Positions 3,194 to 62,433 are shown, numbered from the stretch's first letter. The stretch: 64,000 nucleotides of DNA from Candidatus Nomurabacteria bacterium RIFOXYB1_FULL_39_16 (GCA_001787205.1 MFWB01000008.1:101644-165643), one strand, 5' to 3'. Translations and numbers: made by a program. The notes: generated by a model not told the origin, from the sequence alone.

Positions 3194-5287
<2,094 letters not shown>

Positions 5288-8022: not shown

Positions 8023-8400
8023 TTGTGTATGAGTCCTAGATTCTATAAAGGTATGCAAGTAAACGCTTTTGGCTTGCCAGTTTTTAAAAATGGTAGAAAA
8101 AGTCGCGCAAAGACAAAAAACAGGAAAAAATCTTTTTATTACACTACCTTCTCTTCACCTTTTGAGAAAAATTCTTCTAAAAATTTAATCGTTATGTATG
8201 ATGTTCCCCATGTACAGAAAAAAGAGCGTGACTGGTTTCGCAGGCATTTAATAAAATTTGAATATATTATGATTCAAAAAAGTGTGTGGGTCGGACCGTC
8301 GCCATTGCCCAAGGAGTTCTTGAATTATTTAGAAGAAATAAAGATAGGGGACAAGTTTAGAACGTTTAAATTGGCGAAGTCTTATACAGGGAAGCTTTAA
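8023..8400 (+). CDS. Cas2-like or VapD-fold small protein (N-terminal extension; the true start may be the internal ATG at 8053)
   Basis: LIVMYDV ... ERDWFRRHLIKFEY-IMIQKSVW ... FRTFKL matches the Cas2 pattern: beta1 YD(I/V), a basic helix, G-R-(V/I)-Q-x-S-V-F, and a C-terminal R-I-Y-K-L strand. Confidence 0.45.
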   Translation: MCMSPRFYKGMQVNAFGLPVFKNGRKSRAKTKNRKKSFYYTTFSSPFEKNSSKNLIVMYDVPHVQKKERDWFRRHLIKFEYIMIQKSVWVGPSPLPKEFLNYLEEIKIGDKFRTFKLAKSYTGKL

Positions 8401-8541: not shown

Positions 8542-8772
8542 ATGGTAGTACGAATGAGACATACAAAATCGCATACGAAAAACAGGCGTTCTCACCATGC
8601 ATTGGAGAGTACGAGTTTTACAAAGTGCGAAAATTGCAAAGCTTTAAAGAGACGCCACACAGTCTGCATTTCTTGCGGTTTCTATCGGGGTAAGAAAGTC
8701 ATAGATTTGATTAAAAAGACTGAAAAAAAGCAGAAAAAGCAAAAGGCGAAAAAAGTGGAAGCAGGTAAATAG
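8542..8772 (+). CDS. rpmF: Ribosomal protein L32 with a Lys-rich C-terminal tail (likely start at 8554, MRHTK...)
   Basis: RRSHHALE ... CENC ... RRHTVCISCGFYRGKKV matches the L32 zinc-ribbon core. Confidence 0.8.
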   Translation: MVVRMRHTKSHTKNRRSHHALESTSFTKCENCKALKRRHTVCISCGFYRGKKVIDLIKKTEKKQKKQKAKKVEAGK

Positions 8773-8849
8773 CGATTAGGCCTTAGGCCCTAGGCACTAG
8801 CATTTTAGAAAAGCTAAAGCCTAAAGCCTAGAGCTTAGCGCCTAAACAA

Positions 8850-9776
8850 ATGGCAAATAGGCACCTTTCAAGATCAATAGTACTTCAGACGCTTTTTGAG
8901 TGGGATTTTAAATCTGACACAAAAAAAGAGGATATTTCCGTGGAAAGCGAGATTAAAGACGCGCTGAAAAGAAATCTAAAAGAGTTTGCCCCCGGTTTTG
9001 AAGACGATGCTTTCGTTTTTTCTCTGATGGACAAGGTGCTAAAAAAGCGCGCGACGATTGACGAGATTATAGAAAAAGCCGCGCCAGATTGGCCTATAGA
9101 TAAAATTTCCGTTATTGACAGGAATATCCTAAGAATAGGATTGACCGAGCTTCTTTTTGGCGACAGAAATGAAGTTCCTCCGAAGGTGGCCATCAATGAA
9201 GCGATAGAATTAGCAAAAACTTTCGGCGGAGAAAATTCGGGGAAATTCATCAATGGCGTCTTGGGCGCGGTTTATAAAGAAATAGGCGAACCTGGCAAAG
9301 AGCAAGTCAGTAAAACAAAAAAGCATGAAGAACCGGTGGACATCACAAAATTGCCGGTTGAGGCGTTGGGTGGCGCTTTGGTTTATACACAAAAAGAAGG
9401 AAATATTTTATTCGCCTTCGTGCATGATGTTTTCGGTTACTGGACTTTATCCAAGGGGAAAATTGAGCCGGGCGAAGACGTGAAAGATGGTACCAAGAGG
9501 GCCATTAAAAAAGAAATTGGACTTGATATTGAGATAGAGATGGAATTGGGGAAGAATGAATATGTGGCGACTCATCCAGAAAAAGGTAAAAGTTTAAAGA
9601 AAGTCGTTTACTTTTTGGCGAAAAGCGAAGACAAGGAGCTAGAGCTTGAAAAGTCCGGTGGATTGGATGGGGCTCGCTGGTTTGAACTGTCAGCCATTCC
9701 GGAGCTTCGCATTTACAATGACATTATTCCGCTTATCAGCAAGGCTATTGAAATATTAAGCGGTAAAAATTTATAA
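8850..9776 (+). CDS. NusB (N-terminal) fused to a Nudix hydrolase domain (C-terminal)
   Basis: Residues 1-140 match the NusB fold (SIVLQTLFEWDF ... DRNILRIGLTELLF ... KVAINEAIELAKTFGGENSGKFINGVLG). The C-terminus carries a Nudix box, GKIEPGEDVKDGTKRAIKKEIGL, which is degenerate: REuxEE becomes RAIKKE. Confidence 0.8.
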   Translation: MANRHLSRSIVLQTLFEWDFKSDTKKEDISVESEIKDALKRNLKEFAPGFEDDAFVFSLMDKVLKKRATIDEIIEKAAPDWPIDKISVIDRNILRIGLTELLFGDRNEVPPKVAINEAIELAKTFGGENSGKFINGVLGAVYKEIGEPGKEQVSKTKKHEEPVDITKLPVEALGGALVYTQKEGNILFAFVHDVFGYWTLSKGKIEPGEDVKDGTKRAIKKEIGLDIEIEMELGKNEYVATHPEKGKSLKKVVYFLAKSEDKELELEKSGGLDGARWFELSAIPELRIYNDIIPLISKAIEILSGKNL

Positions 9777-9793
9777 AATATAAAATAAAACTT

Positions 9794-10489
9794 ATGATTC
9801 AATTTTTAGATTTTGAGAAAAAAACCAAGGTAATTTTTAAAGACAAAAATTTATTAAAACAGGCTTTTATCCACCGTTCATATATAAATGAGAACGGTGC
9901 ATCCTCTCTTTCACACAATGAACGACTGGAATTTCTGGGCGATGCGGTGCTTGAACTCGTTGTAACCGATTTTCTTTATAAAAAATATCCAAACTATACG
10001 GAAGGCGAGCTTACGGCGGTGCGTTCCGCCTTGGTCAATGCCATCATCATTTCGGAAATTGCGGGAGATGTCGGGATGAACGATTATTTGCTTTTGTCTA
10101 AAGGAGAAGCGAAAGATTTCGGCAAGGCCAGGCAATATATCCTAGCGAATACCTTTGAAGCGTTCATCGGAGCGATGTATCTGGATCAGGGGTATGAAGT
10201 GGTGGATAAATTCATCGCGAAGACTCTTTTGCCCAAGACGGAAGAAATAGTAAAGAAAAAGCTTTGGCGTGATGCAAAGTCCCTGGTGCAAGAAAAAGCG
10301 CAAGAATTCGTGTCTGTCACTCCTTTATATAAAGTTTTACACGAATCAGGTCCGGACCACGACAAGCACTTTACCGTCGGCGTTTATTTCGGCGGGGAAT
10401 TAATCACTGAAGGCAAAGGCAAATCAAAACAAGAGGCCGAACAAAGCGCCGCCCTGGCAGCCCTAAAGCTGAAAAATTGGCTGGATTAA
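9794..10489 (+). CDS. rnc: Ribonuclease III
   Basis: RNase III signature ERLEFLGDAVLELVV plus a C-terminal dsRBD (FTVGVYFGGELITEGKGKSKQEAEQSAA). Confidence 0.95.
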   Translation: MIQFLDFEKKTKVIFKDKNLLKQAFIHRSYINENGASSLSHNERLEFLGDAVLELVVTDFLYKKYPNYTEGELTAVRSALVNAIIISEIAGDVGMNDYLLLSKGEAKDFGKARQYILANTFEAFIGAMYLDQGYEVVDKFIAKTLLPKTEEIVKKKLWRDAKSLVQEKAQEFVSVTPLYKVLHESGPDHDKHFTVGVYFGGELITEGKGKSKQEAEQSAALAALKLKNWLD

Positions 10490-50997: not shown

Positions 50998-51244
50998 AAA
51001 AAAAATTCCTACATTAACTTAATAATGAAGGAAAGATTTCTTGTGTGGACTAAACACAAAACTCATCTTTCCTGACACTTGCGTGTCTGGTTGGATTTAG
51101 CACCTTACAATTGCAGGTTGCTGTGGGGTCATCGAGCCAATTCTCTACCACCACTCTTGATACAAACTATTCAATTGTACATACATTATAGCACTATTTT
51201 ATAAATTTTGCTAAATTTCCTAACACTTTATCTCCGCCCTCACA

Positions 51245-61811: not shown

Positions 61812-62433
61812 AACGTTAAATATAATTAGTTAATAATCATGACGACCAACATGTGTGAAGCGTTGTAGTTATTTATAATTCGCTTCACTTAAATAGTTTT
61901 TATTTGTTATTATTTATATTTAAATAAGGGGTATGGGGTGGTGGTCTTGAATTGTTGCAGTGAGGTATTCTGGATCCAAGGTGATACATCCATACAGGGT
62001 TCCGCGAGCCTAAAACTAGAAAGGTACACAATTGACCACATTGAGGTTACTGGTACGAGTAACCAATTTCAAGATGTTATTTTAAAAGGGTTATTCGGGA
62101 TCGTGTTTTGCGCAAAGGCACATAGGGGTTGTCTTGAATCAAATCTAATATATAAATTCAATGTGAGTAAAAAATTTCTAATTTTCCACAGCTTTTTTGG
62201 GTTGTATAATTAGCTCAATGAGTGCTATCATATATGTACAATCCTAAACCAGAAATGGCATGGTATATAAGAAATCCCACGCGAGTAAAAACGGCTACAG
62301 AAGTCGCAACTACTCGCGTGGGTCTGTGCATCGAAAGGTGCATAGGATAGTCTCGAAAGAGATTATCGCGATCTTATGTAGCCTTTTTTGCTACCTCTTT
62401 GATTATATTATTAGTTAAAACCCACGCGAAAAT

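What the first reader, a model, noticed from the sequence alone, without database searches (positions are those of the whole stretch)
8850..9776. NusB fused to a Nudix domain with a degenerate Nudix box
A complete NusB (antitermination factor) is translationally fused to a C-terminal Nudix fold. Its signature reads GKIEPGEDVKDGTKRAIKKEIGL, so REuxEE becomes RAIKKE and two catalytic glutamates are replaced. This suggests a non-catalytic or atypical nucleotide or RNA 5'-end-binding module attached to the rRNA antitermination machinery.
Basis: seen in the sequence. Interest (0 to 1): 0.5.

Follow-up and report, generated by a model that had tools for sequence, protein, structure and literature searches.

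The report
NusB fused to a mostly-dead Nudix domain
This gene from an uncultivated "candidate phyla radiation" bacterium joins the rRNA transcription factor NusB to a nucleotide-hydrolase-like (Nudix) domain. The domain has lost key catalytic residues but is strictly conserved, so it probably binds rather than cuts its ligand, and the literature searches run here found no paper describing it.

Summary
Window 8850-9776 (+) is one uninterrupted 308-aa ORF. It holds a complete NusB domain (aa 1-146, above NCBI's nusB equivalog cut-off), a low-confidence 20-25 aa linker, and a Nudix fold (aa 170-308). The Nudix box reads RAIKKE instead of REUXEE.

The fusion is not an artefact. At least 80 species-level Patescibacteria/Parcubacteria genomes and about 50 protein clusters at 50% identity carry it. 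It nearly always sits in the order rpmF, nusB-nudix, rnc (RNase III), smc.

The new point is that box degeneracy is family-wide and recurrent.
- Only 28 of 79 genome orthologues, and 9 of 49 diverse cluster representatives, keep all catalytic residues.
- The state changes at least 18 times on a tree of the orthologues.
- The domain is nevertheless under strong purifying selection.
- The most conserved residues are aromatic or basic. Four of them (K202, Y238, K250, Y289) align with, or lie next to, phosphate-binding or adenine-stacking positions of Ap4A hydrolases, the closest solved structures; W198 and W277 are not mapped.

Best reading: a working NusB carries a tethered, largely non-catalytic Nudix module that binds a nucleoside polyphosphate. 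The ligand could be a free nucleotide or an RNA 5' end; this was not resolved. I rate it a new variant of a known kind, of moderate interest.

The parts
8850..9776 (+). nusB-nudix fusion gene (308 aa plus stop)
   Evidence: Single ORF. Both Pfam domains lie in one polypeptide. Full-length orthologues occur in at least 80 genomes.
8850..9287 (+). NusB domain (aa 1-146), all-helical
   Evidence: PF01029 E 6e-35; TIGR01951 scores 125 bits against a cut-off of 88. Foldseek matches Aquifex NusB in the NusB-NusE-BoxA complex (3r2c/3r2d) with TM 0.85. The residues aligned to boxA-contacting Aquifex F122 and E81 and to E. coli Y18 are F133, D90 and F16, all invariant (PMC3177189).
9288..9356 (+). Linker (aa 147-169) with conserved GEPGK, a Lys-rich stretch and an (E)PxDIxKLP motif
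   Evidence: pLDDT is below 50 for aa 148-161 and pTM is 0.52, so no fixed arrangement between the domains is predicted. Linker length varies from 13 to 35 aa in orthologues while the motifs are conserved.
9357..9773 (+). Nudix-fold domain (aa 170-308), most similar to Ap4A/Ap6A hydrolases
   Evidence: PF00293 E 7e-12. Best PDB sequence hits are Ndx1 (1vc8) and human and C. elegans Ap4A hydrolases. Best Foldseek hit is Aquifex Ap4A hydrolase 3i7u with TM 0.90.
9456..9524 (+). Degenerate Nudix box GKIEPGEDVKDGTKRAIKKEIGL (aa 203-225); A218 at 9501-9503 and K221 at 9510-9512 replace catalytic Glu
   Evidence: Read directly from the sequence.
8542..8772 (+). rpmF (ribosomal protein L32), the conserved upstream neighbour
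   Evidence: PF01783. It lies directly upstream in 72 of 73 orthologous loci.
9794..10489 (+). rnc (RNase III), the conserved downstream neighbour, 17 nt after the stop codon
   Evidence: Ribonuclease_3 plus dsrm domains. It lies directly downstream, same strand and under 300 nt away, in 73 of 77 loci.
8772..8841 (+). Long imperfect hairpin in the rpmF/nusB-nudix spacer, with no U-tract
   Evidence: MFE -31.2 kcal/mol, z -2.8 against shuffles. It is not called as an intrinsic terminator. Its function is unknown.

Best explanation
The gene encodes a NusB with an extra module, in a Patescibacteria (Parcubacteria/Nomurabacteria-type) bacterium. Whether it is the genome's only NusB could not be checked. 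The N-terminal domain most likely works as ordinary NusB: it pairs with ribosomal protein S10 (NusE) and binds boxA in the nascent rRNA leader to nucleate the antitermination and rRNA-folding complex. This role is inferred from homology. A 20-25 residue linker, modelled with low confidence, connects it to an Ap4A/Ap6A-hydrolase-like Nudix domain. In this protein two of the three REUXEE glutamates are gone (RAIKKE), so the domain is most likely a very poor hydrolase or none at all. Positions aligned to the phosphate-clamping lysines (K202, K250) and adenine-stacking aromatics (Y289; probably Y238) of Ap4A hydrolases are kept. I therefore propose that the domain binds a nucleoside-5'-polyphosphate moiety without turning it over. 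The ligand would be either a free ApnA- or NTP-type nucleotide, as a regulatory input, or the 5'-(p)pp or Np4-capped end of the leader RNA held next to boxA. Either way it would add a nucleotide or 5'-end reading function to the Nus complex, upstream of RNase III processing encoded by the next gene. Orthologues that retain an intact box may still hydrolyse the same ligand (ApnA hydrolase- or RppH-like), so the family seems to need binding while catalysis is optional. Shown here: the architecture, conservation, synteny, residue pattern, selection and fold similarity. Inferred: NusB function, loss of activity, and the nature and role of the ligand.
For: Architecture and fold:
- Both domains score significantly and the nusB equivalog cut-off is passed.
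- The model shows two well-folded domains joined by a low-confidence linker.
- The closest solved Nudix structures are Ap4A/Ap6A hydrolases. The ADP-ribose-sensing NrtR Nudix domain (3gz8) is also among the top hits.

Catalytic positions:
- A218 aligns with the residue changed in the crystallised human Ap4A hydrolase E58A variant.
- E222 aligns with the residue changed in the Ndx1 E50Q variant, which was crystallised with intact ATP.
- In the family, the RE glutamate is present in 39/79 genome orthologues and 12/49 diverse cluster representatives.
- A fully intact box occurs in 28/79, 9/49 and 29/120 of the three data sets.
- The box state changes at least 18 times on a tree built without the box columns.

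Selection and conserved residues:
- Pairs in which both members have degenerate boxes show pN 0.04-0.19 against saturated pS 0.6-0.9. This matches intact-box pairs.
- In the 49 diverse representatives, W198 is kept in 46/49, K202 in 47 (plus 2 R), Y238 in 41 (plus 6 F), K250 in 38 (plus 7 R), W277 in 48 and Y289 in 48.
- By the HMMER alignment, K202, K250 and Y289 match human K42, K89 and F128. Those residues form the P1-phosphate site and the adenine-stacking site (PMC4734340).

Context and precedent:
- The order rpmF, fusion, rnc is conserved in more than 94% of loci.
- In L081 a degenerate fused domain (RKVPLE) sits next to a paralogous free Nudix gene with an intact REIKEE box.
- Non-catalytic Nudix folds that bind ligands are known: CFIm25 binds Ap4A without hydrolysing it (PMC2425470), and NrtR senses ADP-ribose (PMC2330246).
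Against: No binding or activity data exist, and the organism is uncultivated. E209 and E222 remain, and E237 and D273 are conserved among close relatives, so residual or atypical catalysis is not excluded. About a third of orthologues have a perfect box, so catalysis matters in at least some lineages. The domain is acidic (net charge -4; family mean -5.7, pI 5.4), which does not fit a general RNA-binding surface. The alignment around the loop-5 tyrosine is ambiguous, because human Y82 aligns to H242 rather than to the invariant Y238. Some of the invariant residues (W198, W277) may be purely structural. No model coordinates were available, so the pocket could not be inspected. Whether this is the only nusB in the genome could not be checked.
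Confidence: 0.55

Rival explanations
1. Protein-docking scaffold. The Nudix fold binds no nucleotide. It is a structural subunit of the Patescibacterial antitermination or rRNA-maturation complex, filling a role like that of SuhB in E. coli, or it recruits RNase III or another partner.
For: Catalytic residues are dispensable while the fold is under strong constraint. The domain is acidic, which suits protein-protein contacts better than RNA binding. SuhB is an inositol monophosphatase that is an integral part of the rrn antitermination complex (PMC6614797). The linkage with rnc is tight. The linker carries conserved short motifs.
Against: The best-conserved residues coincide with nucleotide-contacting positions of Ap4A hydrolases. 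Many orthologues keep a complete catalytic box, which would be unexpected for a pure scaffold. No partner was identified.
Confidence: 0.2
2. Still an enzyme. The domain hydrolyses a Nudix substrate (ApnA, NTP, 5'-ppp or capped RNA) using a non-canonical set of acidic residues (E206, E209, E222, E237, D273), so the 'degenerate' box is only atypical.
For: E209 and E222 are retained here and E222 is present in 73/79 orthologues. E237 and D273 are conserved in more than 90% of close relatives. Nudix enzymes are known to place catalytic bases outside the box (established knowledge of the superfamily). Intact-box orthologues are interspersed in the tree.
Against: A218 matches the position changed in the human E58A crystallographic variant. 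K221 puts a positive charge where a metal ligand normally sits. Across diverse representatives no acidic position is invariant: E222 38/49, E237 13/49, D273 16/49, and some boxes are obliterated, for example LQINK and GDGNE. CFIm25, which lacks two box glutamates, shows no hydrolysis (PMC2425470).
Confidence: 0.15
3. Evolutionary relic. A formerly useful enzyme domain is decaying neutrally after the fusion.
For: The substitutions at catalytic positions are diverse and recurrent.
Against: The reading frame is kept open across orthologues down to 34% identity. pN is far below pS in degenerate-box pairs. Many non-catalytic residues are invariant. Mean pairwise identity of the domain is 0.52 in degenerate members against 0.58 in intact ones.
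Confidence: 0.03
4. Assembly or annotation artefact. Two adjacent genes, nusB and a Nudix gene, were merged by a sequencing error.
For: Two related contigs (L018, L082) carry an in-frame stop at the domain boundary or in the linker.
Against: The window ORF is continuous. So are 79 of 80 independent genome assemblies and more than 120 protein clusters from independent metagenomes. L082 also has a split smc gene, which points to errors in that assembly rather than in the others.
Confidence: 0.01

Closest known systems
NusB (transcription antitermination factor; TIGR01951 / PF01029)
   Same: The N-terminal 146 aa are a complete NusB by sequence and by predicted fold. The residues aligned to boxA- and NusE-contacting positions are conserved (PMC3177189).
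   Different: Canonical NusB is a single-domain protein of about 140 aa. This one carries a 160-aa C-terminal linker plus Nudix domain. Database names ('NusB', 'N utilization substance protein B') ignore the extra domain.
Nudix Ap4A/Ap6A hydrolases (T. thermophilus Ndx1, Aquifex aq_158, human NUDT2, C. elegans Ap4A hydrolase, M. tuberculosis Rv2985)
   Same: These are the best sequence and structure matches to the C-terminal domain. The W-T-x-x-K-G lead-in to the box, the lysines aligned to human K42 and K89, and the aromatic aligned to F128 are all shared (PMC4734340).
   Different: Two of the three REUXEE glutamates are replaced here, and most family members are degenerate. Here the domain is fused to NusB; of these matches, Ndx1, aq_158, NUDT2 and the C. 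elegans enzyme are chains of roughly 125-155 aa, while Rv2985 is a longer chain (341 aa). No activity has been shown.
CFIm25 / NUDT21 (eukaryotic pre-mRNA 3'-processing factor)
   Same: [quoted passage not shown] It works inside an RNA-processing machine (PMC2425470).
   Different: It is eukaryotic and unrelated beyond the fold, and different glutamates are missing. It is not fused to a transcription factor and it binds UGUA RNA through other surfaces. This is an analogy only.
NrtR (Nudix-related transcriptional regulators)
   Same: A non-catalytic Nudix-like effector domain is fused to a nucleic-acid-binding transcription factor domain and senses ADP-ribose. The NrtR Nudix domain (3gz8) is among the top structural hits (PMC2330246).
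   Different: The partner domain is a winged-helix DNA binder, not NusB. NrtR regulates NAD genes at promoters, not transcription elongation.
RppH (bacterial RNA 5' pyrophosphohydrolase)
   Same: It is a Nudix enzyme acting on RNA 5' ends, and so a plausible functional model for the intact-box orthologues tethered next to the rRNA leader.
   Different: Only weak profile hits were found (PRK00714: 19.5 bits against a cut-off of 118). It is not among the top 50 structural hits. The window protein lacks the catalytic residues.
SuhB in the E. coli rrn antitermination complex
   Same: It is an enzyme-family protein (an inositol monophosphatase) that is an integral subunit of the Nus/boxA complex (PMC6614797).
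   Different: The fold is different, it is a separate polypeptide, and it binds NusA-AR2. No homology.

Membership tests
NusB | Sequence matches the NusB family or equivalog profile above the curated cut-off | tested here: met
   PF01029 scores 121 bits (GA 23.1). TIGR01951 scores 125.1 bits (cut-off 88.35).
NusB | All-alpha NusB fold | tested here: met
   The AF2 model has seven helices over aa 4-145. Foldseek gives TM 0.85-0.86 to Aquifex NusB (3r2c, 3r2d).
NusB | Residues that contact boxA RNA or NusE are conserved | tested here: met
   Aquifex F122 aligns to F133 and E81 to D90 (D also in T. maritima). E. coli Y18 and Aquifex Y16 align to F16. All are invariant in the family. Aquifex K118 and E. 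coli D118 align to N129 (PMC3177189).
NusB | Binds NusE (S10) and boxA RNA and supports rRNA antitermination | not testable with these tools
   This needs biochemistry or complementation of E. coli delta-nusB.
Nudix hydrolase superfamily | Nudix alpha/beta/alpha fold | tested here: met
   PF00293 scores 45.9 bits (GA 21.1). Foldseek gives TM 0.78-0.90 to several Nudix enzymes.
Nudix hydrolase superfamily | Nudix box GX5EX7REUXEEXGU with its catalytic, metal-binding glutamates | tested here: not met
   The box reads G203x5E209x7R217-A-I-K-K-E222-I-G-L, so the RE glutamate is Ala and the first EE glutamate is Lys. It is a member by fold, but not demonstrably a hydrolase.
Nudix hydrolase superfamily | Mg2+-dependent pyrophosphohydrolase activity | not testable with these tools
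The activity is inferred to be lost or very weak.
Ap4A/ApnA hydrolase subfamily | Closest relatives by sequence and structure are ApnA hydrolases | tested here: met
   The top hits are 1vc8, 1xsa, 3u53, 1kt9 and 3i7u.
Ap4A/ApnA hydrolase subfamily | Phosphate-binding lysines (human K42, K89) and the second adenine-stacking aromatic (human F128) | tested here: met
   These align to K202, K250 and Y289, which are near-invariant across the family (PMC4734340).
Ap4A/ApnA hydrolase subfamily | Stacking Tyr or Phe 17 residues after the box (human Y82) | tested here: inconclusive
   The position 17 residues after the box is H242, which is variable in distant members. The invariant Y238 lies 13 residues after the box, as in Ndx1. 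The alignment in this loop has a gap (PMC2425470).
Ap4A/ApnA hydrolase subfamily | Catalytic glutamates (human E58 and E62; Ndx1 E46 and E50) | tested here: not met
   The E58 equivalent is A218. The E62/E50 equivalent, E222, is kept.

The most novel reading that the evidence does not exclude
The tethered pseudo-Nudix domain is a dedicated reader of a nucleoside-polyphosphate signal. The signal would be either the alarmone Ap4A (or a related NpnN) or an Np4N/5'-triphosphate cap on the nascent rRNA leader. This would give the Nus antitermination complex of Patescibacteria a nucleotide-sensing or 5'-end-capturing input with no counterpart in model bacteria. It would couple rRNA transcription and RNase III processing to cellular state, with catalysis (signal removal) switched on or off in different lineages.
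Probability: 0.2. Interest if true: 0.75.

Novelty: new variant of a known kind. Interest (0 to 1): 0.5.

Why it matters
Patescibacteria (the candidate phyla radiation, CPR) make up a large share of bacterial diversity and have small genomes and unusual ribosomes. I know of no experimental work on how they control rRNA synthesis. A two-domain NusB, recurrent across many Parcubacteria-type genomes and under purifying selection, implies that their antitermination and rRNA-maturation machinery differs in composition from the E. coli model. The pattern of 'fold and binding residues obligatory, catalytic residues optional' is a clear natural example of an enzyme domain moving back and forth across the enzyme/pseudoenzyme boundary. 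Two proteins already known, NrtR and CFIm25, show that such domains can act as ligand sensors in gene expression. The proteins are small and soluble-looking, so the hypothesis can be tested in vitro without culturing the organism.

Tried and rejected
- Artefact. I looked for a stop or frameshift between the domains. There is none in the window or in 79 of 80 genome loci.
- Neutral decay. Rejected by pN/pS.
- A second NusB or a related Nudix gene in the 64-kb window. None was found with family HMMs.
- A fixed inter-domain arrangement. AF2 gave pTM 0.52 and a low-confidence linker. The alignment was shallow (at least 76% identity), so this is weak negative evidence.
- AFDB search for the architecture in other phyla. 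The library was not available.
- Taxonomy of the most divergent fusions through cluster look-up. No names are on record.
- A search with the Nudix domain alone for free-standing relatives. It returned mostly gene fragments from short contigs. The two followed up were a real adjacent paralogue (L081) and a fusion split by a stop codon in an error-prone contig (L082).
- Correlation between box loss and a nearby intact paralogue. Only L081 shows it.
- Literature. Searches for NusB with Nudix, and for NusB with 'Candidate Phyla Radiation', found nothing on this fusion.
- boxA. I tested whether the window's own 5' region carries the boxA-like motif seen in orthologues. It does not.

Full report
**1. 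The observation**

Window 8850-9776 (+) is a single ORF of 308 codons, from ATG to TAA, with no interruption.
- Pfam places NusB (PF01029) on aa 7-143 (E 6e-35) and NUDIX (PF00293) on aa 193-288 (E 7e-12).
- NCBIfam's nusB equivalog model TIGR01951 scores 125 bits against a cut-off of 88.
- The quoted signature is aa 203-225 and reads G-x5-E209-x7-R217-A218-I-K-K221-E222-I-G-L. The 'RE' glutamate is alanine and the first 'EE' glutamate is lysine. E209 and E222 remain.

**2. The fusion is real and conserved**

A search of 5.8 billion proteins returned at least 120 clusters at 77-99% identity. All are about 306 aa, all carry both Pfam domains, and those with names come from Nomurabacteria, Paceibacterota, Parcubacteria or Minisyncoccia. 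They are annotated simply as 'NusB'.

A scan of one genome per species found at least 595 matching loci.
- The best 80 all cover query residues 1 to about 305 at 56-82% identity.
- Most records with a specific name are titled as Patescibacteria lineages: Nomura-, Zambryski-, Kaiser-, Lloyd-, Vogel-, Niyogi- and Taylorbacteria. Many are labelled generically 'Saccharibacteria' and a few only 'bacterium' or 'uncultured bacterium'.
- One record is labelled Flavobacteriaceae. It has the same synteny and is probably mis-binned (lineage).

An exhaustive HMMER search of 1.84 billion representatives found about 50 full-length fusion clusters at the 50% identity level, reaching down to 34% identity. It also found single-domain NusB proteins of 140-180 aa at 50-57% identity, so the fusion is widespread in this group but not universal.

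The ORF is continuous in 79 of 80 genome loci. The artefact scenario is therefore excluded.

**3. Anatomy**

The AlphaFold2 model has mean pLDDT 81.
- It shows an all-helical NusB domain (aa 4-145) and an alpha/beta Nudix domain (aa 170-305).
- The linker has pLDDT below 50 for aa 148-161 and the overall pTM is 0.52, so no fixed arrangement of the two domains is predicted.
- The linker is 13-35 aa long in orthologues. It carries a conserved GEPGK motif, a lysine-rich stretch and an (E)PxDIxKLP motif.

Foldseek against the PDB gave clear matches for each domain.
- The NusB part matches Aquifex NusB in its NusE-BoxA complex (3r2c/3r2d, TM 0.85).
- The Nudix part matches best the Aquifex Ap4A hydrolase (3i7u, TM 0.90), C. 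elegans and human Ap4A hydrolases, T. thermophilus Ap6A hydrolase Ndx1, and M. tuberculosis Rv2985/MutT1.
- The ADP-ribose-binding Nudix domain of the regulator NrtR is also in the top dozen.
- Sequence searches of the PDB agree with this ranking.

The residues of Aquifex NusB that hold boxA have conserved counterparts, all invariant in the family (PMC3177189).
- Aquifex F122, which stacks on U8, aligns to F133.
- Aquifex E81 aligns to D90.
- The NusE-interface tyrosine, E. coli Y18, aligns to F16.

**4. The degenerate box is a family-wide, recurrent feature**

The three data sets give the following counts.

| Data set | Fully intact box | Main variants or per-site counts |
|---|---|---|
| 121 sequences (query plus 120 closest clusters) | 29 | REIKEE 27, REIKKE 23, RAIKKE 27, KAIKKE 11, and others |
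| 79 species-level genome orthologues | 28 | 51 degenerate in more than 30 different ways, e.g. RK..EE, RV..EE, RE..EK, AK..EE, KA..KE |
| 49 diverse cluster representatives | 9 | RE glutamate 12/49, first EE glutamate 24/49, last EE glutamate 38/49; some boxes obliterated |

On a neighbour-joining tree built without the box columns, the intact/degenerate state changes at least 18 times. If regain is disallowed, 29 independent losses are needed.

The window's own clade shows a stepwise path:
1. EREEE in L006.
2. EREKE in L002 and L005.
3. ERAKE in the window and L010.
4. EKIKE in L001.

**5. The domain is nevertheless under strong constraint**

- Pairs of orthologues that both have degenerate boxes show non-synonymous differences of 0.04-0.19 per site against saturated synonymous differences of 0.6-0.9. 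Intact-box pairs give 0.09-0.13, so the two classes are alike.
- Mean pairwise identity of the Nudix domain is 0.52 in degenerate members and 0.58 in intact ones. NusB is 0.68 in both.
- The best-conserved Nudix positions family-wide are not the catalytic glutamates. In the 49 representatives they are W198 (46/49), K202 (47, plus 2 R), Y238 (41, plus 6 F), K250 (38, plus 7 R), W277 (48) and Y289 (48).

The HMMER alignment to human Ap4A hydrolase gives these equivalences.

| Window residue | Human Ap4A hydrolase residue | Role in the human enzyme (PMC4734340) |
|---|---|---|
| K202 | K42 | P1-phosphate site |
| K250 | K89 | P1-phosphate site |
| Y289 | F128 | Adenine-stacking aromatic |
| A218 | E58 | Catalytic glutamate; the residue changed in the crystallised E58A variant |

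- E222 aligns to E50 of Ndx1, the residue changed in the E50Q variant that was crystallised with intact ATP.
- The equivalent of the loop-5 stacking tyrosine, human Y82, is ambiguous. It aligns to H242, but the invariant Y238 sits 13 residues after the box, as in Ndx1.

**6. Context**

- rpmF (L32) lies directly upstream in 72 of 73 loci.
- rnc (RNase III) lies directly downstream on the same strand in 73 of 77 loci, often with gaps of 5-30 nt. smc usually follows.
- In the window, rnc starts 17 nt after the fusion's stop codon.
- In one relative (L081) a degenerate fused domain (RKVPLE) is followed by a paralogous free-standing Nudix gene with an intact REIKEE box, and then by rnc. No other locus shows this.
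- No second NusB or related Nudix gene lies in the 64-kb window.

**7. Interpretation**

*What is shown.* This is a genuine, lineage-wide NusB::Nudix fusion. Its Nudix domain resembles ApnA hydrolases, is selectively maintained, and treats the canonical catalytic residues as optional.

*What is inferred.*
- The NusB half does the normal NusB job.
- The window's Nudix half is catalytically dead or nearly so.
- It keeps a nucleoside-polyphosphate binding site and works as a binding module. The ligand would be a free nucleotide, or the 5'-(p)pp or Np4-capped end of the rRNA leader emerging next to boxA.
- It sits in a gene cluster with RNase III, which in model bacteria processes pre-rRNA (established knowledge).

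*Precedents for ligand-binding, non-hydrolysing Nudix domains in gene expression.*
- CFIm25 lacks two box glutamates and binds Ap4A without hydrolysing it (PMC2425470).
- NrtR has a Nudix-like ADP-ribose sensor fused to a DNA-binding domain (PMC2330246).
- SuhB is a precedent for an enzyme-family protein serving as a subunit of the rrn antitermination complex (PMC6614797).

*Evidence against an RNA-binding reading.* The domain is acidic, with net charge -4 and a family mean pI of 5.4.

*Rivals.*
- A pure protein-docking scaffold (confidence about 0.2).
- Atypical residual catalysis (about 0.15).
- Neutral decay, effectively excluded.
- Artefact, effectively excluded.

**8. Novelty**

The proteins are in public databases but are named only 'NusB'. 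Full-text searches for NusB with Nudix, and for NusB with 'Candidate Phyla Radiation', found no description of the fusion. It is a new variant of known kinds: NusB, and pseudo-Nudix ligand-binding domains. It is not a categorically new system. I rate interest at 0.5. A transcription or CPR specialist would find the conserved architecture and the labile catalytic box notable, and the hypothesis can be tested with recombinant protein.

**9. Limits**

- No model coordinates were accessible, so the pocket could not be inspected.
- The AFDB library was unavailable.
- Whole-genome questions could not be addressed. These include whether this is the sole nusB, and the presence of suhB, rppH or apaH.
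- The trees are neighbour-joining only.
- Synonymous sites are saturated, so only pN/pS contrasts are reported, not calibrated dN/dS.

Noticed in passing
L002, L006, L009, L013-L015, L021, L057-L059, L064, L076 and others: 7-18 nt upstream of the nusB-nudix ATG. Absent from window 8790-8849.: A boxA-like motif, G[TC]TC[ATC]TT (often GTTCTTTAA or GTTCATTAA; GCTCTTTAA in L021), lies just upstream of the start codon in 30 of 78 orthologous loci, against 2.3 expected. It resembles the rrn boxA consensus UGCUCUUUA (PMC6614797). It may mean that NusB/S10 autoregulates this gene, as shown for suhB and proposed for nusE (PMC5725501). The window's own gene lacks it.
   Followed up: partly
window 8772-8841 (+): The rpmF/nusB-nudix spacer is built from short CTAGG/CCTAAAG-type repeats. 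It folds into a long imperfect hairpin (-31.2 kcal/mol, z -2.8) with no U-tract. The nearest relatives (L001, L004, L011, L003, L008) have different short tandem repeats at the same place. The next gene but one is RNase III, so this may be an RNase III processing or autoregulatory stem. Not tested.
   Followed up: partly
L018 (around the stop just before locus position 4475) and L082 3956-3958: Two related contigs have an in-frame stop codon exactly at the end of the NusB domain (L018...AVYK*LGEPGK) or inside the linker (L082...GKEQIS*KIKELEPVD). This splits the fusion into separate NusB and Nudix ORFs. L082 also has a split smc gene, so assembly error is plausible. Natural fission or read-through is not excluded.
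   Followed up: partly
L081 2936-4313: A fusion with a degenerate box (RKVPLE) is followed, with an 8-nt overlap, by a paralogous 156-aa free-standing Nudix gene with an intact REIKEE box, and then by rnc. A third, unrelated Nudix gene lies upstream of rpmF. It looks like duplication with a division of labour. This is the only case among 82 loci.
   Followed up: yes
window 8023-8400 (+): A small ORF between thrS and rpmF matches the PaaX central Cas2-like domain (PF20803, E 3e-12) and CRISPR_Cas2 (E 5e-7). A homologue sits at the same place in L082, and copies lie 3 kb downstream in L009 and L011. The listed TTG start is probably too far upstream.
   Followed up: no
window 51060-51166 (-) and 62241-62367 (+): Rfam finds a SAM riboswitch (S-box, 61 bits) and a LOOT RNA (RF03000, 52 bits), both above their gathering scores.
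   Followed up: no
L070 (JBLHIK010000014.1): A contig from a MAG titled 'Flavobacteriaceae bacterium' carries the Patescibacteria-type order thrS / rpmF / nusB-nudix / rnc / smc at 59% identity. It is probably a mis-binned Patescibacteria contig.
   Followed up: no
window aa N129 of the fusion (nt 9234-9236): The position aligned to E. coli NusB D118 and Aquifex K118 is asparagine. This is the same residue as in the E. coli nusB101 (D118N) allele, which is thought to raise boxA affinity (PMC3177189). The position is only moderately conserved in the family.
   Followed up: no
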